A stretch of DNA of 64,000 bases, taken from assembly GCA_013334245.1 (NCBI GenBank), contig JAAXXZ010000004.1, positions 127 to 64,126 on the forward strand. Reading direction: 5' to 3'. Shown one piece after another: positions 54,481 through 64,000 of the stretch. The notes under the pieces were generated by a model, which ran no database searches, was not told the DNA's origin, and saw only the letters and a program-made list of their open reading frames with translations. The number at the start of each line of letters is the position of its first letter. Position 1 is the first letter of the stretch. The translations under genes and the position numbers were made by a program. This stretch comes from Candidatus Moraniibacteriota bacterium (GTDB lineage Bacteria > Patescibacteriota > Minisyncoccia > Moranbacterales > UBA1568).

Positions 54481-54502
54481 TTGAATGATAATGGAGGGAA
54501 AT

Positions 54503-55081
54503 ATGAAACGACTGGGACCGGTGCAGGAAAAGACGCTTCTCATCCTTCTTGGTGTCATCGCGCTTGGGGGTTCGCGCACGATCGTGCGGCAGGCCAGGCT
54601 GGTTTCGGAGCTCCGAAAGGAATGGAAAAAGATCGACCGGAGGAGCGTCGCGCGTTCGCTGAGGCGCCTTTCCGAGGAGAAGCTCATTTCCGAGAAGGTC
54701 TTGCCGGATGAGACCGTCCATTTCGCGCTCACCTCGGAAGGGCGTCGGAAAGCGAGTTTTCTGAACCTGTTCGGTTCGGCCATCACATTCAGGAAGCCGA
54801 AAAAATGGGATGGAAAATGGCGGGTTGTCGCGTTCGATATTCCCGAGAAGAGCCGGTCATTCCGCCGCATCTTGCGCGAGCATCTTCATGAAGCGGAATT
54901 CTATCAGTTGCAGCAAAGCGTGTTCGTATCGCCATATCCTTTCGAGGAGCCGTTTGCGAAGCTCGTGCGGCTGTATGATGCCGAGCCGTACGTCAGGATC
55001 ATGACGGTTTCCTGGATGGATGACGAACTGAAATTGAGGCGCATATTTTTCGGACGTCGCAGGAATCCTTCGAAAGGGTGA
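54503..55081 (+). CDS. PaaX-like winged-helix transcriptional regulator
   Basis: C-terminal block KWDGKWRVVAFDIPEKSRSFRRILREHL...QQSVFVSPYP matches the PaaX C-domain pattern; SD GGAGGG upstream. Confidence 0.55.
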   Translation: MKRLGPVQEKTLLILLGVIALGGSRTIVRQARLVSELRKEWKKIDRRSVARSLRRLSEEKLISEKVLPDETVHFALTSEGRRKASFLNLFGSAITFRKPKKWDGKWRVVAFDIPEKSRSFRRILREHLHEAEFYQLQQSVFVSPYPFEEPFAKLVRLYDAEPYVRIMTVSWMDDELKLRRIFFGRRRNPSKG

Positions 55082-55111: not shown

Positions 55112-55147
55112 ACTTTTGAGAAGAGTGTGATTTTTCGAATACGGATA

Positions 55148-55162
55148 CCCGCTTTACAATAG
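55148..55162 (+). promoter_or_regulatory. CCCGCTTTACAATAG motif copy 3 with G-rich leader GGGGAGTAGAAAGGGGGTGAAAGGGG
   Basis: Shares the motif and an extended leader with copy 4. Confidence 0.4.
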
Positions 55163-55200
55163 GGTAATTGGGGAGTAGAAAGGGGGTGAAAGGGGTGGGG

Positions 55201-55390
55201 ATGAAGGCATCCGATCTCGTTTTGGGTTAGGGCTGCTCATCGAGGTCGAGCGATTGTCGGACGCAGAAAACGACGAAGCGGTCCAGGAAGACCTGAAAGC
55301 CTTTCTCCTGTCACTCGGCATCGGCAAAATGGACATCGTCACCAAGGGCTACGATACGCTTTTGTATGAGGCGGGAAAATTCGCTTGTTA
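55201..55390 (+). pseudogene. Internally deleted duplicate of the CYTH gene: promoter, leader and first codons fused to the last about 160 bp
   Basis: 55233-55390 is about 90% identical at nucleotide level to 58969-59124; the reading frame is closed after 9 codons (MKASDLVLG*). Confidence 0.6.
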
Positions 55391-55451
55391 AAGGAGTTGG
55401 AGGGGAGGAAAACAGGGGTGTAGGTCTATCGTGATGCTTTCTTCATTGACT

Positions 55452-57839
55452 ATGAAATACGTCAGCTCCCTTTGGAATATCGAGAAAGAAGATAGCGCTA
55501 TCGCTGGAGGAAAAGGCGCTTCGCTTGGTGAGATGATTCGGGCGGGCTTCCCTGTCCCGCCAGGATTTGTCGTTCTTTCAAGTGCTTTTGACGTTTTCTT
55601 GAAGGGGACGGGCTTGAATGCCAAGGTGGAATTGATACTGGAGTCAGTTATTCCCGAAGACACAGGGACAATCGAAAAAGCTTCTGAAAACATCCGATCG
55701 ATTATCCTTGCGGCGGCGATGCCAAGGGAAATTGAAGAGGAAATCAGGAAATCATTCAATGAACTCGGTTCGGAATATGTCGCTGTCAGGTCTTCGGCTA
55801 CCGCCGAGGATTCTGCTGTAGCGGCATGGGCAGGACAGCTCGAAAGCTTTCTTAATACCAATTCGGAAGACTTGCCGAAAAACGTGAAGAGTTGTTGGGC
55901 TTCGCTCTTTACGCCGCGCGCCATAACATATCGGCTCGAAAAAGGATTGGGTTCGCAAAGCATATCAGTCGCTGTCGTCGTTCAGGAAATGGTGGAGAGT
56001 GATACGTCAGGTATTGCCTTTTCCGTCCATCCCGTAACACATGACGTCGACCGTATGTTTATCGAAGCGGGGTACGGGCTTGGTGAAGCGATCGTGTCGG
56101 GGCAGGTTACCCCGGACAGTTATGAGGTGAGAAAAGATCCGATGGAAATAGTGGATAAGAATATTCAATCACCAGCGCGTGGATTATATCGGTCTGATCG
56201 CGGAGGAAACGAATGGCACGATGTGCCTGCGGAGCGGAAGGGGAAGGCGGTTTTGTCGGACGCTGAAATCATAAAGCTGTCGGATATTGTTGTCGGCATA
56301 GAGGGACACTATGGGTTCCCATGCGATATCGAGTGGGCAATCGCAGACGGGCGGCTGTATGTTGTCCAAAGTCGACCGATAACGACACTTGCTGAAAAGC
56401 TCGTGACCGTAGAAAAATTGTTGCTCATGTACAAGGAAGTCAATGTCTGTGGATTGACGATGTCCGTGAACGTCTCGGGTTGGATAGACGAATGGCTGAG
56501 TCGGACCTGCCGCGTAGGCAGTTTCGGGTCGATGGCTTGCCGGTTCCGCGGATATGAGATGGATTTCTATGTGGATAAGGGTCAGTACGAAAAAGCGCAT
56601 TTCGAAATAGTGCGACAGATCGAGGCTGGCACGTATCCCATCGAGTTTTCGACCGAGCGCTCGATGGCGTTGGGTGATCGGATCCTATCGATTGTCCGTT
56701 CGGGTCGTTCGGTATGGGAGGCTATGGACCCTGGGAAAGTCTGCGAAATATTCTCTGAAGTATTCGATTGTAGTCGGAAGCTTTGTTCTTATGGATACAT
56801 TGCCCCCTTATCCGATTTCCCGTACACCTTCATTTCTTCCCGGATGCAGGAGATACTCGAGGCGCGTCACGCTTCGGATGCGGCTGGTCTGAAAATCTTT
56901 TTGAGTACCCCGGAGGCTAGGCGCCCGATGATGCTTGCAAACGAAGAGATGTTTCGGATTATCGCCGAGCAAGGGGACCTCGGATCGTGGCTACAGCGGT
57001 GGTTTTGGATCGATTTCGGTCACATCGGTGCGGTGCTGACCGACGCGTCGGTTCGTGAGAAGTACAAGTTATTATTTGACGATCCCAAACGCGCGACGAC
57101 AGAGCTGCAAAATATCTCTGCAGAATACGGTTCTTTGGAGGAGAAACAGGAAAAAAATATTGGAGAGCTCGGGTTTTCAGATGAAGAGAGACGGATTTTT
57201 CGATATGCACGGGAGATCACGTTTCTGAAGGGGTATCGTGCCGATGTGCTTTCGGCGGCAAACGCATTTTTTGACGCGGTTTTCGAAATCTATTCGAAAA
57301 GACTCGGTATCGGGAAAGACGTTTTCAGGTTTGCGACAAAAGAGGAAGTGGTTGCGCTCATATCGGGAAGCGATATCAATGTCGCGGAAATCCTTGAAAG
57401 GAAAGACTATTCCATTTGGCTTTATACGGACAACGCCTCTGGAATCTTGATACATACCGGCGAACAGGCACGACAGTTTGAAGCAGATCATCTGGCGGAA
57501 GAGCATGTCGTTCATGAGGGAAAAGTTATAAAAGGAAATGTCGCGTACCCCGGTATCGTTGAAGGTACTGTTCGGATTGTGAACTCTCTGGAGGACCTTA
57601 AGAAGATGAATCGCGGAGAAATCCTGGTATCGACGCAGACCACACCGGAACTGCTTCCCGCGATGAGCAAGGCGGCCGCCTTTATTGCCGATGTTGGGGG
57701 GATTATTTCCCATGCCGCCATCGTCGCGAGAGAGATGAAGAAGCCTTGTATCATTGGGACCGAAATCGCATCCAAGGTCCTCAGGGATGGCGATCGGGTT
57801 CGTGTCGATGCCAACTCCGGGGTGATAGAGATAATATGA
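55452..57839 (+). CDS. PEP-utilising enzyme with N-terminal PEP-synthase-type ATP-grasp domain and C-terminal phospho-His swivel domain, with no PEP/pyruvate TIM-barrel domain (rifampin-phosphotransferase-like architecture)
   Basis: N-terminal GGKGASLGEM and ATP-grasp motifs; C-terminal GGIISHAAIVAREMKKPCIIGT mobile domain at the very end of the protein. Confidence 0.7.
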   Translation: MKYVSSLWNIEKEDSAIAGGKGASLGEMIRAGFPVPPGFVVLSSAFDVFLKGTGLNAKVELILESVIPEDTGTIEKASENIRSIILAAAMPREIEEEIRKSFNELGSEYVAVRSSATAEDSAVAAWAGQLESFLNTNSEDLPKNVKSCWASLFTPRAITYRLEKGLGSQSISVAVVVQEMVESDTSGIAFSVHPVTHDVDRMFIEAGYGLGEAIVSGQVTPDSYEVRKDPMEIVDKNIQSPARGLYRSDRGGNEWHDVPAERKGKAVLSDAEIIKLSDIVVGIEGHYGFPCDIEWAIADGRLYVVQSRPITTLAEKLVTVEKLLLMYKEVNVCGLTMSVNVSGWIDEWLSRTCRVGSFGSMACRFRGYEMDFYVDKGQYEKAHFEIVRQIEAGTYPIEFSTERSMALGDRILSIVRSGRSVWEAMDPGKVCEIFSEVFDCSRKLCSYGYIAPLSDFPYTFISSRMQEILEARHASDAAGLKIFLSTPEARRPMMLANEEMFRIIAEQGDLGSWLQRWFWIDFGHIGAVLTDASVREKYKLLFDDPKRATTELQNISAEYGSLEEKQEKNIGELGFSDEERRIFRYAREITFLKGYRADVLSAANAFFDAVFEIYSKRLGIGKDVFRFATKEEVVALISGSDINVAEILERKDYSIWLYTDNASGILIHTGEQARQFEADHLAEEHVVHEGKVIKGNVAYPGIVEGTVRIVNSLEDLKKMNRGEILVSTQTTPELLPAMSKAAAFIADVGGIISHAAIVAREMKKPCIIGTEIASKVLRDGDRVRVDANSGVIEII

Positions 57840-58474: not shown

Positions 58475-58484
58475 GTGAATTATA

Positions 58485-58499
58485 TCCGCTTTACAACGG
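58485..58499 (+). promoter_or_regulatory. TCCGCTTTACAACGG motif copy 4 with the same G-rich leader as copy 3
   Basis: Upstream of the CYTH gene at 58549. Confidence 0.4.
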
Positions 58500-58548
58500 C
58501 GTGTTTGGGGAGTAGAAAGGGGGTGAAAGGGATGGATATTCCGTTCCG

Positions 58549-59124
58549 ATGGTGGGGTATGTCATTAGTACCGAAATGAAGGAAATCGAGGTCAAAGCAC
58601 GGATACGCGATATCGACACGCTGACCGGAGTGCTTGCCGCCAAGGGGTTCGTATTCGGCGAACCCGCGGTCCAAAACGACGTGATATTCCTGCCGGCCGG
58701 GATCGAGTTCCCGGAAATCACCAAAGGGGTGCCGGTCGTGCGTGTGCGGAACGCGGACGGCGTTTTTACCCTGACACTCAAGATGCGCGTCATCGCCGGG
58801 AAGGAACTCATAAAGCTGGAGAAGGAAGTGAATGTGAGCGACGACAAGACGGCCATCGAGATCGTCTCGCTCATGGGATTTCACGAGGTGATACGAGTCG
58901 GCAAGAAACGGATGGAATGCGAACACGACGGCGTGACCGTCTGTATCGACGATGTGACCGGACTCGGGGCGTTCATCGAGGTCGAGCGATTGTCGGACGC
59001 AGAAAACGGCGAAGCGGTCCAGGAAGACCTGAAAGCCTTCCTCCTGTCGCTTGGCATCGGCACAGACGACATCATCACCAAAGGCTACGACACGCTTTTG
59101 TATGAGAAGAAGAAACCGTGTTAA
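58549..59124 (+). CDS. CYTH-domain protein (CyaB-like), paralogue 2
   Basis: MKEIEVKARI E.E.K motif; intact parent of the 55201-55390 fragment; a short 15-codon uORF in another frame starts at 58533. Confidence 0.65.
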   Translation: MVGYVISTEMKEIEVKARIRDIDTLTGVLAAKGFVFGEPAVQNDVIFLPAGIEFPEITKGVPVVRVRNADGVFTLTLKMRVIAGKELIKLEKEVNVSDDKTAIEIVSLMGFHEVIRVGKKRMECEHDGVTVCIDDVTGLGAFIEVERLSDAENGEAVQEDLKAFLLSLGIGTDDIITKGYDTLLYEKKKPC

Positions 59125-59179
59125 AACGCGATTGGAAGAGTATGAATGAATATAATCCATAATACAGTTTCATGAGTCT

Positions 59180-60946
59180 ATGCGATATATAAAGTTTCTG
59201 ATTCGTAATTATAAAGGAATAAAGTCATTAGAGTTGGATTTAGATTTATTCCCCGATCATAAAATCTATACACTAGTTGGTCTAAATGAATCGGGGAAAA
59301 CAACCATACTTGAAGCAATAAATGATTTTGAATTTGATGTCTCAGTTAATAAGCGGCATCTGTTAATACCGAAGAGTTCGGCGGGAGGTTTTACTGGAGA
59401 TATCGCAATAAAAGCAACGCTTCAATTTTCTGAAGATGATAAAGGGAGAATAATTGCCTTCATTCGGTCGAGGATTAAGGTAAGTGAAGTGTTTGTCTCT
59501 GAAACTTTAATCATAGAACGAAAATATAGTTTTAAAAACTCTACGCCGTATGAGTCTAAAAGAACATACGAAAAATATGTAAAAATAAAAAAGACTGCAA
59601 AAGGAAAGCCAGTTGATTTGGATGAAAGTATATCCAAAGAACTGTGGAGTTTTATTAAGGAAACGATGTTTCCTGAGATAATCTTTTATCGTGATTTCCT
59701 TTCTAAATTTCCGGAGAAGATTTACTTAGATGCAGAAGATCCTAAAGATAAGAACTATCTATCAATTATTGAAGATATTCTTACTGCTATAAATCCTGAT
59801 TATAACGTTCAAAATAGTCTCTTAGACAGACTGGACGATTCAACTGATGCTGCAAAAAAACAAGCGCTTGAAGCAGTCGAGAATGACATGGGCGCGAAGA
59901 TTTCTAAAGTAGTGTTTGACGCATGGAACAAGATACTAAACGTAAGTAAGAAAGAAATTGTTGTTAAGGCAGAATATGATGCCGAGAAGGGAAGATATTA
60001 TCTTCGATTGAGCGTAAAAGATGGTCATCAAACTTACGCCGTTGCTGAGCGGAGTCTAGGATTTCGATGGTTTTTCACTTTTCTTTTATACACAGAATTT
60101 CGAAAGGAAAGGATAAAAACTTCAGGAGAAATCTTGTTTATTTTGGATGAGCCAGCATCAAATCTTCATCAGACTGCGCAACAAAGCTTACTTGAAACAT
60201 TTCGTACAATAACAAGCAAATCACGACTAATATATACAACACATAGTCATCATTTGGTGAATCCAGAATGGTTAAGTTCCGCATATATTATTCGAAACAA
60301 AGGTCTTAAGTATAATGAGAGTGATGATTATAATCTAACGAAGACGGAAATTGAAGCATTTAAGTACAAGCAATTTGTTTCAAAATACCCGACCGAAACC
60401 TCGTATTTTCAGCCGATTTTGGATGTGTTGGATTATAAGCCAGGCTTACTTGAGCTGATTCCCAATATCGTAATAACAGAAGGAAAATTCGACTATTTTA
60501 CCTTTAGATATTTTAAAGAGATAGTTTTCTCGGACTTGACTGATGGCTATAGATTTTATCCTGGAATGGGCGCTTCAAGCTTAGACCTACCTATTTCCTT
60601 ATATGAATCATGGGGTAAAGGATATTTGGTTTTACTTGATTCGGATAAGGAGGGCCGTGATCAAAAGGAGCGTTATATTAAAGATATAAGCGATACTCAG
60701 CATATCTATACTCTTGAGGATTGTTTTTCAGATTTAAAAAATTCAACGACTGAAAAAGTATTTACTGAAACGGAAAAAATTGAAATCTCTAAGGAGTTTA
60801 ACAGTGAGCTTACTGAATATAATAAAAACGCTTTTAATACGGGAATTCAGATTCTGTTAATGCAAAAACGTATTCCTGACTATTTAACTGATGAAACAAA
60901 GAAAAAGATGAGGAAGATTATCGAATTTATCAACGGTAAAATATAA
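59180..60946 (+). CDS. OLD-family nuclease (N-terminal ABC-type ATPase plus C-terminal Toprim)
   Basis: Walker A GLNESGKTT, Walker B ILFILDEPASNLH, H-loop TTHSHH; Toprim Glu (ITEGKFD) and DxD (LLDSDKEG); about 33% GC. Confidence 0.7.
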   Translation: MRYIKFLIRNYKGIKSLELDLDLFPDHKIYTLVGLNESGKTTILEAINDFEFDVSVNKRHLLIPKSSAGGFTGDIAIKATLQFSEDDKGRIIAFIRSRIKVSEVFVSETLIIERKYSFKNSTPYESKRTYEKYVKIKKTAKGKPVDLDESISKELWSFIKETMFPEIIFYRDFLSKFPEKIYLDAEDPKDKNYLSIIEDILTAINPDYNVQNSLLDRLDDSTDAAKKQALEAVENDMGAKISKVVFDAWNKILNVSKKEIVVKAEYDAEKGRYYLRLSVKDGHQTYAVAERSLGFRWFFTFLLYTEFRKERIKTSGEILFILDEPASNLHQTAQQSLLETFRTITSKSRLIYTTHSHHLVNPEWLSSAYIIRNKGLKYNESDDYNLTKTEIEAFKYKQFVSKYPTETSYFQPILDVLDYKPGLLELIPNIVITEGKFDYFTFRYFKEIVFSDLTDGYRFYPGMGASSLDLPISLYESWGKGYLVLLDSDKEGRDQKERYIKDISDTQHIYTLEDCFSDLKNSTTEKVFTETEKIEISKEFNSELTEYNKNAFNTGIQILLMQKRIPDYLTDETKKKMRKIIEFINGKI

Positions 60947-61013
60947 TTTGGACATTCAGATAATGGTCTATATTCAATATTTCGAATAAATTCCCCCTAC
61001 TTGTCGCGTATCC

Positions 61014-61037
61014 GAAAAGGGGTCAAGTACTTTTTTA
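61014..61037 (+). other. 24-nt motif GAAAAGGGGTCAAGTACTTTTTTA (copy B), 68 bp downstream of the OLD gene
   Basis: Matches copy A at 42531-42555 at 22 of 24 positions. Confidence 0.5.
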
Positions 61038-61140
61038 ACGTCTTCTCGACAGACCATCGGAAATATGCCGGATATTAAGATGTGAAAAATGCAGGCGATG
61101 ATTGATAAATATTTCTATAATTAAATTGTAATTAAAAAGT

Positions 61141-61773
61141 ATGTCATATTGCTCGATGTGTGGAACCAAGGCAAATGATGGCGCAATCTTTTGTTCTAAG
61201 TGTGGATCGAATTTGCAAAAGGGCCAACCCTCTGATCTTGAGGTAAAAGAAATTCGGTCAGAAAGTAATATCAGTTTTTTTTCCATATCAAACAAGCGTC
61301 TTGCTCTGTTTTCTGTTATCACGTTCGGCCTATACGAGATATTTTGGTTTTATAAAAATTGGAGTGCAGTAAAAATGGCCGAAGGCAAGAAGATCGCACC
61401 ATTCTGGAGAGCTATATTTGCTGTATTTTTCTGTCACTCACTTTTTAAGAAAGTTCTTGAATCAGCTAAAAGTCATTCATATACCAAATCGTATTCTCCT
61501 GGTTGGCTAGCTGCAGGGTATATTATTATTCTTTTTATTAATAATGCTTTGAGTAAAGCAGAATCTACTGATATAAGTACTCTTTTGTTGTTACTGTTTT
61601 CTTTGATTTCATTTTTGCCTTTGTTGCCAGTCCAAAATGCGATTAACTATAATAATGAACAATTAAAGGGTGCGATGCCGTTGAAACATGGTTTCTCTGG
61701 TGGGGAAGTTACAATTATAGTAGTGGGTATCATTTGGTTTTTTCTGGTACTCGTTGGTACGTTCTCGGCGTGA
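61141..61773 (+). CDS. Zinc-ribbon-anchored membrane protein (DUF4234-like)
   Basis: N-terminal CSMCG...CSKCG ribbon, GLYEIFWFYKNW motif, 4 TM; AT-rich like the OLD gene. Confidence 0.5.
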   Translation: MSYCSMCGTKANDGAIFCSKCGSNLQKGQPSDLEVKEIRSESNISFFSISNKRLALFSVITFGLYEIFWFYKNWSAVKMAEGKKIAPFWRAIFAVFFCHSLFKKVLESAKSHSYTKSYSPGWLAAGYIIILFINNALSKAESTDISTLLLLLFSLISFLPLLPVQNAINYNNEQLKGAMPLKHGFSGGEVTIIVVGIIWFFLVLVGTFSA

Positions 61774-62081
61774 TCGGAAAAGATTAAGGTTCCTTTTTAG
61801 CCTCCCTCTCGCCATACCGCCGGAAACATCTCAGGTGCACGGAAGAGGGGATTCGAATGCAGACGGAAGGGAAGGAATGTGCGATACTATCGATATGACA
61901 CAGGACGAGACATACGAGCGGATACTGGAAGCAGCGAGGAACGATTCCAAAGTCCTCGGTTTTGTGCTGACCGGAGGAGGTTGGAAATTTATCTGACTCA
62001 ATGATGCATAGACGATCGCCGTCACGGATGACAGTATGAGAATCTTGGAGACGTGAATGAATAAAGTGTTTCTGAACCGTT

Positions 62082-62741
62082 ATGAATAACAACGACTATC
62101 GCAACAGGATCGTGGAGTCATACCTGCCGGAATCGTACCGGGTCTGGTTTGAAGAAGAGGCGAAATACCTCGCCGCTCATGTTGCCCGTTCGGCCGTCGT
62201 GCTCGATGTCGGCTCCGGGGACGGCCGTACCATAAATGATCTGCTGCCGGTCACGAAGAATATAACGGGTATCGATCACGACACTGCCGCTATCGAGCGG
62301 GCCAAGGAACGGTTCAAGGATTTCCCATCGGTGCATGTTGAAACTGCGGACGCGACGAAGATTCCGTTTGAAGATGGGCGATTCGATTTTGTCACGTGCA
62401 TGGGGGTGCTCATGAACCTTGGGGAACACAGGACGGAGGCGCTTCGGGAAATGAAACGGGTAGTGAAGGATGGCGGAAAGATCATTTTGGATTCCTTTTC
62501 GGAACGATCGTTAATGGAGCGTCTGAAAGCGTATGAGGCTGCCGGTGTCCCGGTGAAACGAATCGAGGGCGGAGCGGTGTTTTTCGACGAGAGTATCGGT
62601 GATAATATTTCGGAGCAGTTTACCGAAGGAGAATTGAGAAATATTTTTGATCGGGAGGGATTGATCATCGAAGATATGTATGATGGTGGAATCGTATACA
62701 TATTTACCGTTTCGAAGAAAAATACCAGTCTCATACAATAA
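62082..62741 (+). CDS. Class-I SAM-dependent methyltransferase
   Basis: Motif I VLDVGSGDGRT, motif post-I GIDHD, motif II FDFVTCMGVL. Confidence 0.75.
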   Translation: MNNNDYRNRIVESYLPESYRVWFEEEAKYLAAHVARSAVVLDVGSGDGRTINDLLPVTKNITGIDHDTAAIERAKERFKDFPSVHVETADATKIPFEDGRFDFVTCMGVLMNLGEHRTEALREMKRVVKDGGKIILDSFSERSLMERLKAYEAAGVPVKRIEGGAVFFDESIGDNISEQFTEGELRNIFDREGLIIEDMYDGGIVYIFTVSKKNTSLIQ

Positions 62742-62759
62742 TCCGTTAGCCGTAATCGT

Positions 62760-62924
62760 ATGGAAAGGATAAAGGTGGAGCAGCACGGGTTCACGGCGTT
62801 CTCGTGGTGCGCCGGGTGGCTGTTCACACTCGGGTTTTTGCACCTCACTTTTTGGAAGGGGGTGCTGGCGATCGCGCTGTGGCCGTACTTCATCGGCCTC
62901 GCGGTGAGTGCCTTGGCGAAGTAG
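62760..62924 (+). CDS. Possible 54-aa two-TM peptide
   Basis: Short ORF between the methyltransferase and the CDPS-like gene; two hydrophobic helices. Confidence 0.25.
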   Translation: MERIKVEQHGFTAFSWCAGWLFTLGFLHLTFWKGVLAIALWPYFIGLAVSALAK

Positions 62925-62985
62925 CTGGACTTGCATATCTTTTCGGGATGGTCGATGATTGAGTCATCGCATTATTGTTGTACGT

Positions 62986-64000
62986 ATGGAAGGAAACCAG
63001 GCTGGTACATACCACATCATCGGGATGAGTCCCGGAAATAGCTATTTTAAGGATCAGGAGATTTCGTATCTTCTGAAAACGGTTGTTGGGAAGTTCGGGA
63101 AAGTCGGAATACTGATAGCGGATATACCGGCGGTTTCGACCTATGTCGCGCTTGGATATCCGGAGAACCGCGCGCGTCGCGACAAGGCTATTCCCAAGGG
63201 AAATGCTCTAAAAAACCGTGTCCGAAAGGTCATGGAAGAGCTTGGATATTCGGAAGAAATCGTCAGAATCTTCGACTGGGAGCACGAAGTCGAGGGGAAC
63301 GCGGAGTATCGGGAGTCGTATCGGAAAATCAAGGAACTGTATGAAGGGAACGAATCGTTCCATGAATCTGCCGCATCTACGACGCGGGTGGTTCTCGATG
63401 GTTCGCGCAAGAATATTCCAGACATGGAAGCCGCGACGGAGACAGCCGTTCATTATCTTCTTTCCGAGTTGGCGTTTCTGGAGTTTGCCGTTTCGTATCT
63501 CGGAGCGGATCAAATCGTATATGTCTATCATAAGAACTGGAGGGTTTTCGAGGACTATATTTCAGGTACATTTGATAATATCTTCCGGCCATATTTGGAT
63601 TTCCTGCTTTTGGAAAATCCGTATGAGACCTTCAACCCGATATGGGGTCTTGAGGATGAGGAAAACGGATACGAGGATGCTTTGGATCGCGTCGAGAAGA
63701 GCGGAGTATTGCGGGTCGGTTTTTTTGAGTATCCTACGGCTTTGGAACGCGACGAGAATAGCGGGACCTTTTCCGGAATCTTCCATGATGTTATCTCACA
63801 CATCGCGATGAAACACGGGTGGAACCTGAAGTGGGTCGAGGAAACCGGCTACGGGGTGATCCTCGATGGCCTGAATGCGGACCGCTTTGACGTATTCGGC
63901 AGTACGGTCTGGCCGACGGATGAGCGGGATGCCGAGTTTTCGGTTTCGCTCTATGGCAGCCCGGTATATTCCTGGGTCAGAGAAGGATTCGGAAAGGGCG
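62986..64000 (+). CDS. Cyclodipeptide synthase (AlbC-like) domain fused in frame to an SBP_bac_3-like periplasmic-binding domain (3' end outside window)
   Basis: IIGMSPGNSYF matches the AlbC catalytic-Ser region IGISAGNSYF; YLLSE matches the AlbC Y178/E182 pair; from about 63690 the sequence GVLRVGFFEYP...FDVFGSTVWPTDERDAEFSVSLYGSPVY is PBP-type-2-like; the ORF is not in the supplied track because it runs off the window end. Confidence 0.6.
   Translation, partial: MEGNQAGTYHIIGMSPGNSYFKDQEISYLLKTVVGKFGKVGILIADIPAVSTYVALGYPENRARRDKAIPKGNALKNRVRKVMEELGYSEEIVRIFDWEHEVEGNAEYRESYRKIKELYEGNESFHESAASTTRVVLDGSRKNIPDMEAATETAVHYLLSELAFLEFAVSYLGADQIVYVYHKNWRVFEDYISGTFDNIFRPYLDFLLLENPYETFNPIWGLEDEENGYEDALDRVEKSGVLRVGFFEYPTALERDENSGTFSGIFHDVISHIAMKHGWNLKWVEETGYGVILDGLNADRFDVFGSTVWPTDERDAEFSVSLYGSPVYSWVREGFGKG

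What the first reader, a model, noticed from the sequence alone, without database searches (positions are those of the whole stretch)
62082..64000. Cyclodipeptide-synthase domain fused to a periplasmic-binding-protein-like domain, beside a SAM methyltransferase
The frame starting at ATG 62986 has no stop before the window end (more than 338 codons). Its first about 230 residues carry the cyclodipeptide synthase signatures: G-x-S-P-G-N-S-Y-F around the catalytic serine, matching AlbC 'IGISAGNSYFS', and a Y-x-x-x-E pair in 'HYLLSELAF' matching AlbC Y178/E182. The following about 110 or more residues resemble a type-2 solute-binding (SBP_bac_3) fold. CDPSs are normally standalone proteins of about 230-300 aa that hijack aminoacyl-tRNAs and are paired with tailoring enzymes. 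A CDPS covalently joined to a ligand-binding PBP domain is an unusual architecture. The neighbouring class-I methyltransferase (62082-62741) and a 54-aa two-TM peptide (62760-62924) fit a small diketopiperazine biosynthetic locus. The locus sits next to the AT-rich OLD island, so it may be part of the same accessory region.
Basis: partly seen in the sequence, partly recalled or inferred. Interest (0 to 1): 0.8.

Follow-up and report, generated by a model that had tools for sequence, protein, structure and literature searches.

The report
Cyclodipeptide synthase fused to solute-binding domain
The last gene in the window really encodes a tRNA-dependent cyclodipeptide synthase joined in one chain to an amino-acid-binding-type domain, but this fusion is a widespread, already catalogued and still unstudied protein family of ultra-small (CPR) bacteria, and the neighbouring methyltransferase is not its conserved partner.

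Summary
The frame from ATG 62986 runs open to base 64000 (338 codons). It matches the cyclodipeptide synthase (CDPS) models (Pfam 2.3e-29, TIGR04539 9.6e-36) and then SBP_bac_3 (6.9e-8, above Pfam's cut-off). All CDPS catalytic and NYH-subfamily residues are present.

The fusion is not an artefact. More than 100 protein clusters of about 470 aa share it. About 40 species-level genomes carry it, mostly Patescibacteria, plus Obscuribacterales and Bdellovibrionota.

The architecture is already on record. Gondry et al. [quoted passage not shown] I found no functional study.

The biosynthetic-cluster reading is not supported:
- The methyltransferase is missing from the nearest relative and from all 68 other loci.
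- No neighbour is conserved.
- The gene has host-like GC (50%), unlike the AT-rich island (32-39%).

Most likely it is a self-contained cytoplasmic enzyme that makes a still unknown cyclodipeptide. The binding domain keeps its carboxylate-clamp Arg and an amine-binding Glu, so it probably senses or supplies an amino-acid-like ligand. That role is inferred, not shown.

The parts
62986..64000 (+). CDPS-SBP fusion gene. The window holds the first 338 of about 470 codons before it ends.
   Evidence: The frame is open to the window end. It is 91% identical over 338 aa to P0001 (470 aa). Pfam finds CDPS plus SBP_bac_3.
63001..63609 (+). CDPS catalytic domain, NYH subfamily. It carries the catalytic Ser15 (63028-63030), Asn18, Tyr157, Glu161, Tyr181 and His182, and a basic helix alpha4 (R62, R64, R65, K67, K76, R78, K81).
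63610..63678 (+). Conserved interdomain segment (LLLENPYETFNPIWGLEDEE...). The standalone relatives lack it.
   Evidence: E210, N211, P212 and E214 are invariant. Standalone CDPS relatives end at about residue 210. This is the least confident block of the model (pLDDT 71-78), yet pTM is 0.87.
63679..64000 (+). First lobe of the amino-acid-type solute-binding domain. It includes EETGY289G, W309 and the carboxylate-clamp R314. The rest of the domain lies beyond the window.
   Evidence: PF00497 6.9e-8. The C-terminal-domain profile matches AncCDT-1 at 5.9e-22. Foldseek TM 0.82-0.87 to ligand-bound amino-acid SBPs. R314, W309 and Y289 are invariant in 50/50.
62760..62924 (+). 54-aa hydrophobic small ORF, probably a real small membrane protein. 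No link to the synthase is shown.
   Evidence: It is conserved in L001, with 13 synonymous and 6 non-synonymous codon differences. It is absent from all other loci (phmmer) and matches no family.
62082..62741 (+). Class I SAM-dependent methyltransferase. It is a strain-specific neighbour, not a conserved partner.
   Evidence: Methyltransf_11 1.3e-22. It is absent from L001, where similarity to the window begins at 62739. Only three weak, generic methyltransferase hits occur in the 68 other loci.
61804..61978 (+). Remnant 5' end of a nucleotidyltransferase-like gene. It marks the left edge of the segment replaced by the methyltransferase.
   Evidence: 85% nucleotide identity to L001 3444-3619, the start of an intact 278-aa NTP_transf_2-like gene. 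In the window the frame stops at 61996.

Best explanation
The gene encodes a cytoplasmic two-domain protein of about 470 aa. SHOWN at sequence and model level: the N-terminal 210 residues are a complete NYH-type cyclodipeptide synthase. The C-terminal 240 residues are a complete two-lobed amino-acid-type solute-binding fold with no signal peptide and no membrane segment. It therefore sits in the cytoplasm, next to an enzyme that needs aminoacyl-tRNA. INFERRED from the established CDPS mechanism: the first aminoacyl-tRNA docks on the basic helix alpha4, and its amino acid is transferred to Ser15. A second aminoacyl-tRNA gives a dipeptidyl-enzyme, and Tyr181 helps it cyclise to a 2,5-diketopiperazine. 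The product is unknown. The pocket signatures (P1 IGLAWFLY, P2 TVVGKWR) match no characterised CDPS, but P1 is nearly constant across the family, so one conserved product is likely. INFERRED for the binding domain: it keeps the carboxylate-clamp Arg314 and the acidic residue at the alpha-ammonium position (Glu398 in the homologue). It also keeps invariant Tyr289, Trp309, Asp356 and Glu285/286. It therefore most likely still closes on a small amino-acid-like, probably cationic, ligand and couples that binding to the synthase. This would tie diketopiperazine output to amino-acid supply. The protein works as a single-gene unit, and the adjacent methyltransferase and 54-aa ORF are not part of it.
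Against: No experiment exists for any member. The role of the binding domain (sensor, substrate holder, product holder or scaffold) is not discriminated by any result here. I could not inspect model coordinates, so I do not know whether the binding cleft faces the CDPS active site. The ligand assignment rests on two or three aligned residues at 17-23% identity to solved proteins. Half of the binding domain, including Glu398 and Asp356, lies outside the window and is read from a 91%-identical homologue. A few standalone CDPS sequences (L043, L066) nest inside the fused clade, so the synthase can evidently work, or at least persist, without the domain.
Confidence: 0.5

Rival explanations
1. The binding domain handles the product rather than sensing a metabolite. 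It would capture the newly made diketopiperazine for hand-off to an exporter or for sequestration, or it would act as a tailoring catalyst, as cyclohexadienyl dehydratase evolved from an SBP.
For: Known CDPS fusions carry tailoring domains (P450, methyltransferase; Gondry 2018). The best solved sequence relatives of the domain belong to the AncCDT/cyclohexadienyl dehydratase lineage. The pocket has many invariant acidic residues (E285, E286, E354, D356). In L001 a DedA/VTT protein and an ABC-exporter-type membrane protein follow the gene.
Against: The position of the dehydratase general acid Glu173 is Leu, Ile or Thr in 50/50 members, so it is not a CDT-type enzyme. An Arg and acid pair suited to a free alpha-carboxylate and alpha-ammonium is an odd fit for an uncharged diketopiperazine ring. 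No exporter is conserved nearby.
Confidence: 0.2
2. Non-canonical chemistry. The binding domain would hold a free amino acid or amine as acceptor for the aminoacyl-Ser15 (or dipeptidyl) intermediate. The protein would then be an aminoacyl-tRNA-dependent ligase making a linear or aminoacylated product, not a plain diketopiperazine.
For: The amino-acid-binding residues are retained in a cytoplasmic domain tightly coupled to the synthase (pTM 0.87). The interdomain segment is strongly conserved. The pocket signature is unassigned.
Against: All residues needed for the normal two-tRNA ping-pong and cyclisation, including Tyr181 and the P2 pocket core T-x-V-G-K-W, are invariant. Closely related standalone CDPSs lack the domain. 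No geometric evidence shows that the cleft reaches the active site.
Confidence: 0.12
3. The domain is a ligand-free scaffold for oligomerisation, extra tRNA contacts or stability, and has lost binding.
For: SBP folds are reused as structural modules. The fused and standalone forms coexist.
Against: The pocket-lining residues (R314, W309, Y289, D356, E398) are among the most conserved positions of the whole protein across phyla. That pattern is expected for a maintained binding site, not for a scaffold.
Confidence: 0.08
4. The methyltransferase, the 54-aa membrane peptide and the CDPS-SBP gene would form a three-gene diketopiperazine cluster that makes a methylated cyclodipeptide, possibly as part of the AT-rich accessory island.
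For: The three genes lie on one strand with gaps of 18 and 61 bp. Methyltransferases are known CDPS tailoring enzymes, from established knowledge and Gondry 2018.
Against: The methyltransferase is absent from the nearest relative. There the breakpoint lies at its stop codon, and a truncated nucleotidyltransferase remnant marks a replacement. No orthologue lies near the gene in 68 other loci. GC is 50% against 32-39% for the island. The methyltransferase is a generic UbiE/Methyltransf_11 type.
Confidence: 0.05

Closest known systems
[quoted passage not shown] 2018 (PMC5816076, supplementary sheet 'NYH CDPSs')
   Same: Same family and architecture. OGY85379.1 is my hit P0034 (59% identity, 479 aa, CDPS + SBP_bac_3). 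Its pocket signatures VGLAWFLY/TAVGKWT compare with IGLAWFLY/TVVGKWR here.
   Different: Nothing structural. Those entries carry no activity, product or role for the extra domain, and the label 'ABC transporter domain' hides that it is a cytoplasmic binding-protein fold.
YvmC (cyclo-Leu-Leu synthase, PDB 3oqh) and BtCDPS (6ztu), standalone NYH CDPSs
   Different: They are about 23% identical, single-domain, and sit in clusters with a P450 (established knowledge for yvmC-cypX). The specificity pockets differ, so cyclo-Leu-Leu cannot be assumed.
CDPS fused to tailoring domains (for example NYH CDPS 71 with a C-terminal P450; methyltransferase fusions), Gondry et al. 2018
   Same: An N-terminal CDPS of about 240 aa is joined to a C-terminal second domain, and the isolated CDPS part was active.
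   Different: There the partner is a recognisable tailoring enzyme. Here it is a binding-protein fold with no known catalytic residues.
AncCDT-1, LAO and ArgBP cationic amino-acid-binding proteins, and cyclohexadienyl dehydratase (PaCDT)
   Same: Same two-lobed fold (TM 0.82-0.87). The carboxylate-clamp Arg and the acidic alpha-ammonium residue are conserved.
   Different: Those proteins are secreted or periplasmic and serve ABC transporters or aromatic amino-acid synthesis. This domain is internal to a cytoplasmic protein and lacks the dehydratase general acid Glu173. Identity is 17-23%.
ParcuCDPS (Parcubacteria RAAC4_OD1_1, cyclo-His-Pro / cyclo-His-Glu)
   Same: It is the only characterised CDPS from a CPR bacterium.
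   Different: It belongs to the XYP subfamily, is single-domain, and has pockets GAYAWELY/FEWKYTR. It is not detected by sequence search with this protein.

Membership tests
Cyclodipeptide synthase (PF16715 / TIGR04539) | Profile match above the curated cut-off | tested here: met
   PF16715 scores 103.1 bits against a cut-off of 27. TIGR04539 scores 123.4 bits against 45.
Cyclodipeptide synthase (PF16715 / TIGR04539) | Catalytic Ser (AlbC S37) in G-x-S, plus Y178, E182 and Y202 | tested here: met
   S15, Y157, E161 and Y181 are in register with AlbC, YvmC and BtCDPS and invariant in 50/50 family members.
Cyclodipeptide synthase (PF16715 / TIGR04539) | Rossmann-type fold of solved CDPSs | tested here: met
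Cyclodipeptide synthase (PF16715 / TIGR04539) | Basic patch on helix alpha4 for the first aminoacyl-tRNA | tested here: met
   R62, R64, R65, K67, K76, R78 and K81 lie on predicted helix 60-86 and are conserved in the family. The feature is defined in PMC4066775.
Cyclodipeptide synthase (PF16715 / TIGR04539) | Forms a cyclodipeptide from two aminoacyl-tRNAs | not testable with these tools
   This needs expression and LC-MS. No member of this subfamily has a reported activity.
NYH subfamily of CDPS | N40, Y202 and H203 (AlbC numbering) | tested here: met
   N18, Y181 and H182 are invariant in 50/50. Gondry 2018 lists family members on the NYH sheet.
SBP_bac_3 / type-II amino-acid solute-binding proteins | Profile match and two-lobed fold | tested here: met
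SBP_bac_3 / type-II amino-acid solute-binding proteins | Arg clamp for the ligand alpha-carboxylate and an acidic residue for the alpha-ammonium | tested here: met
   R314 (inside the window) aligns with the TPER Arg of AncCDT-1. E398 (homologue only) aligns with Asp170. They are conserved in 50/50 and 48/50.
SBP_bac_3 / type-II amino-acid solute-binding proteins | Export signal, extracytoplasmic location and a partner ABC permease/ATPase | tested here: not met
   The domain follows a cytoplasmic enzyme with no signal peptide or membrane segment between them. No ABC genes are conserved nearby. It has the fold of the family but is not a transport receptor.
Cyclohexadienyl dehydratase (SBP-derived enzyme) | Desolvated general acid Glu173, three residues after Asp170 | tested here: not met
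   The equivalent position is Leu (37), Ile (7) or Thr (6) of 50. The feature is defined in bioRxiv 10.1101/157495.
CDPS biosynthetic gene cluster with a tailoring methyltransferase | Conserved co-location of the synthase with the tailoring gene | tested here: not met
   The methyltransferase is absent from nearest relative L001 and from 68 other loci. The best real neighbour cluster occurs in only 7 of 71 loci.

The most novel reading that the evidence does not exclude
The cytoplasmic binding domain is not a passive appendage. It would gate or feed the synthase with a free, probably basic, amino acid. The protein would then either make a product other than a plain diketopiperazine (aminoacyl transfer to a bound acceptor) or act as a one-protein sensor and synthase. 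In the second case it would turn the amino-acid status of an episymbiotic or predatory cell into a diffusible cyclodipeptide signal. The taxa that carry it (CPR bacteria, Obscuribacterales/Melainabacteria, Bdellovibrionota, with standalone forms in DPANN archaea) are mostly host-dependent or predatory lineages, so the product could be a host-interaction molecule.
Probability: 0.12. Interest if true: 0.8.

Novelty: new member of a known kind. Interest (0 to 1): 0.42.

Why it matters
CPR bacteria have tiny genomes with almost no secondary metabolism. A protein kept at 45-65% identity across several of their classes is therefore probably doing something useful. CDPSs divert charged tRNAs from translation, which is costly for cells that cannot make their own amino acids. 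A built-in amino-acid-binding domain would be a direct way to control that drain. SBP_bac_3 domains are almost always outside the cytoplasm, so a cytoplasmic one welded to a tRNA-dependent enzyme is an unusual reuse of the fold. The family is large and sequence-defined, expresses as one gene and has a confident model. The product and the ligand could therefore be found with routine experiments. For this window specifically, the result is more modest. It is one more member of that catalogued family, and the proposed three-gene cluster does not hold.

Tried and rejected
1. Assembly or frameshift artefact joining two genes. Rejected: the same junction occurs in more than 100 clusters and about 40 species genomes.
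2. Conserved gene cluster. I called ORFs in 71 loci and clustered them twice. The greedy non-overlapping call picked some antisense ORFs, so I repeated it with all ORFs of at least 45 aa. After removing alternative-frame ORFs inside the gene itself, the best neighbour families occur in 7 or fewer of 71 loci and are generic (TrmB regulator, two-component system, UDG).
3. Targeted searches for the methyltransferase, 54-aa peptide, ABC exporter, DedA, racemase, MFS, CYTH and PaaX-like genes. None is widespread. A PaaX-like regulator directly precedes the gene only in L005 and L002/L007.
4. In genomes with the standalone CDPS, a separate SBP gene next door (Rosetta-stone test). None was found within 8 kb.
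5. Cyclohexadienyl-dehydratase-like catalysis. Rejected because the general acid is missing.
6. Product prediction from the pocket signatures. The signature matches no characterised group in the Gondry 2018 tables that I could read (seven sheets were cut off), so no product is assigned.
7. Literature. The terms 'cyclodipeptide synthase' with solute-binding, substrate-binding, Parcubacteria or 'fused to' found no study of this fusion. One search was too loose and returned nothing useful.
8. Interdomain geometry. The tools return no coordinates or PAE, so I could not determine whether the cleft faces the active site.
9. Nearest non-fused relatives of the binding domain. They are secreted orphan SBPs of unknown ligand, so they gave no ligand clue.
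Full report
WHAT IS IN THE SEQUENCE. The frame that starts at ATG 62986 has no stop before base 64000, giving 338 codons. It also reports SBP_bac_3 (PF00497) at E 6.9e-8 over residues 257-321. Both are above their curated cut-offs. NCBIfam TIGR04539 'tRNA-dependent cyclodipeptide synthase' scores 9.6e-36. Upstream on the same strand lie a class I SAM methyltransferase (62082-62741, Methyltransf_11 1.3e-22) and a 54-aa hydrophobic ORF (62760-62924) that matches no family.

THE CDPS DOMAIN IS COMPLETE.
- Against solved structures, the N-terminal part matches YvmC (1.9e-13), BtCDPS (4e-12), Rv2275 and AlbC.
- The AlbC alignment runs query 5-182 to chain 27-203. This places S15 on the catalytic S37, N18 on N40, Y157 and E161 on Y178 and E182, and Y181-H182 on Y202-H203.
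- The protein is therefore an NYH-subfamily CDPS.
- All six residues are invariant in 50 of 50 family members.
- Helix 60-86 carries R62, R64, R65, K67, K76, R78 and K81, and these are conserved in the family. This corresponds to the basic helix-alpha4 patch that binds the first aminoacyl-tRNA in AlbC (PMC4066775).
- With the pocket positions defined by Gondry et al. 2018, the window protein reads P1 IGLAWFLY and P2 TVVGKWR.
- P1 is nearly constant in the family ([IV]G[LMF]AWF[LM]Y). P2 has a fixed core T-x-V-G-K-W-x.
- No characterised CDPS in the tables I could read has this signature, so the product is unknown. It is probably the same across the family.

THE FUSION IS REAL AND WIDESPREAD.
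- A search of 5.8 billion proteins returned 414 hits. Nearly all of the best 120 are 450-490 aa and carry both Pfam domains.
- P0001 is 91% identical over all 338 residues and is 470 aa long, so the window lacks about 132 C-terminal residues.
- A scan of one genome per species found 68 loci. About 40 encode the fused form. They come from several Patescibacteria lineages (Uhr-, Kerfeld-, Nomura-, Moranii- and Berkelbacteria, and Paceibacterota), Obscuribacterales/Melainabacteria, Bdellovibrionota and a few proteobacterial MAGs.
- Peribacteria and Absconditabacterales copies appear split, probably because UGA is read as a stop in my translation.
- About 22 loci encode a standalone CDPS of about 210 aa from the same clade, in CPR bacteria and DPANN archaea.
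- A rough neighbour-joining tree of the CDPS domains, without support values, puts the archaeal standalone forms at the base. CPR standalone forms come next and the fused forms are nested within, with two standalone sequences (L043, L066) inside the fused clade. This fits one or a few fusion events followed by transfer and occasional loss.
- Decayed copies exist (L064 has an internal deletion, and L044 has a broken second domain).

THE BINDING DOMAIN.
- A profile of the C-terminal domain matches AncCDT-1 best (5.9e-22). AncCDT-1 is the reconstructed cationic-amino-acid binder ancestral to cyclohexadienyl dehydratase. Other polar amino-acid binders follow. Reconstructed ancestors are consensus-like, so that rank may be inflated.
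- In that alignment, the family's W-P-T-P-E-R314 lies on the T-I-T-P-E-R of AncCDT-1. Glu398 lies on Asp170, which the CDT paper names as part of the inherited alpha-amino-acid-binding motif.
- R314, W309, Y289, D356, E285 and E286 are invariant, and E398 is present in 48 of 50.
- The dehydratase general acid Glu173 is replaced by Leu, Ile or Thr in all 50, so a CDT-type activity is excluded.
- There is no signal peptide or membrane segment. The domain must be cytoplasmic, because the CDPS needs charged tRNA. That location is unusual for SBP_bac_3.
- An exhaustive profile search of 1.84 billion representatives shows that the nearest non-fused relatives are proteins of 275-300 aa with signal or lipoprotein leaders. 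They share the same EE-G-[YW]-G, W-P-T-x-E-R and D-G-D-I motifs (E 1e-57 to 1e-38). Two of them sit away from any ABC transporter genes. The domain therefore descends from a genuine, still uncharacterised binding-protein lineage and has kept its pocket.

THE NEIGHBOURHOOD DOES NOT SUPPORT A CLUSTER.
- In the nearest relative (L001), nucleotide similarity (88%) begins at window 62739, the methyltransferase stop codon, and covers the 54-aa ORF and the CDPS-SBP gene.
- A second block (window 61804-61978) matches the 5' end of an intact 278-aa nucleotidyltransferase-like gene in L001. That gene is truncated in the window. The methyltransferase therefore occupies a replaced segment and is strain-specific.
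- Across 71 loci, no real neighbour family occurs in more than 7, and those families are generic regulators or repair genes.
- The methyltransferase and the peptide have no orthologues near the gene elsewhere.
- The 54-aa ORF is probably a real gene. It shows 13 synonymous against 6 non-synonymous codon differences with L001, similar to 76 against 31 for the CDPS gene. It is seen only in that close relative.
- GC is 49-52% across the three genes, like the genome background (50-57%). The OLD-ATPase island at 59.0-61.5 kb is 32-39%, and L001 has no such island.

LITERATURE.
- Gondry et al. [quoted passage not shown] - OGY85379.1 is my hit P0034.
- Searches for functional work on this fusion found nothing, including a 2026 review of aminoacyl-tRNA-dependent enzymes.
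- The characterised CPR enzyme ParcuCDPS is an unrelated XYP-type, single-domain CDPS.

INTERPRETATION. The two-domain identity, the catalytic completeness, the conservation and the lack of partners are shown. The canonical ping-pong synthesis of a cyclodipeptide is inferred from the CDPS family. The inference I rate most likely (about 0.5) is that the binding domain closes on an amino-acid-like, probably cationic, ligand and couples this to synthase activity. As a weak parallel, the DPANN standalone CDPSs always sit beside a double Lrp/AsnC-type regulator, a family known to respond to amino acids.

VERDICT. This is a correct and careful observation of a real fusion. It is a new member (91% identical to a deposited protein) of a family that is already annotated and was noted in print in 2018. 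The cluster and island parts of the interpretation fail. The family itself remains uncharacterised and is a reasonable experimental target. Interest is moderate.

Noticed in passing
window 55145-55370 and 58482-59106: There are two direct repeats: 141 nt at 90% identity (55230-55370 / 58966-59106) and 54 nt at 87% (55145-55198 / 58482-58535). The first duplicates the 3' end of the CYTH-like gene (58549-59124) as a fragment ORF at 55254-55391. The repeats bracket the PEP-utilising-enzyme-like 802-aa ORF (55431-57839) and a 242-aa ORF. This suggests a segmental insertion or duplication.
   Followed up: partly
window 59000-61800: An AT-rich island (GC 32-39% against 50-57% around it) carries an OLD/AAA_15-type ATPase (59180-60946) and a zinc-ribbon plus DUF4234 membrane protein (61141-61773). 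It is absent from the nearest relative's contig L001.
   Followed up: partly
window 61754-61996; L001 3440-4276: An 80-aa ORF in the window is the truncated start of a nucleotidyltransferase-like gene that is intact (278 aa) in L001. It marks the point where the methyltransferase segment replaced older content.
   Followed up: yes
window 54485-55081; L005 36-686; L007 5578-6171: A PaaX-like regulator gene directly precedes the CDPS-SBP gene in two other lineages (Uhrbacteria L005, and L002/L007). In the window it lies 7.9 kb upstream, separated by the repeat-bracketed segment, the AT-rich island and the methyltransferase. The ancestral order may have been regulator then synthase.
   Followed up: partly
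L058-L063 (DPANN archaeal loci), about 1 kb upstream of the standalone CDPS: All six archaeal standalone CDPS genes lie next to a divergently oriented 345-aa protein with two Lrp/AsnC-type HTH modules and an AsnC ligand-binding domain.
   Followed up: partly
L064 7977-8552; L044 8001-8765: Some copies of the fusion are decayed. A Kerfeldbacteria copy has an internal deletion joining residues 9-83 to 334-469. A Falkowbacteria copy has an ORF that ends near residue 204, although similarity continues to residue 271 in another frame.
   Followed up: no
P0134-P0270 (protein hits); loci L071-L073: A large family of secreted or lipoprotein SBP_bac_3 proteins of 275-300 aa shares the fused domain's pocket motifs. 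In the two contexts examined they are 'orphans' with no ABC permease or ATPase nearby. Many end in a conserved P-Y-x-[VL]-P tail that is absent from the fused domain.
   Followed up: partly
L001 6695-9312: In the nearest relative, the CDPS-SBP gene is followed by a DedA/VTT-domain membrane protein and an ABC-exporter-type membrane protein. The same genes may lie just beyond the window end.
   Followed up: no
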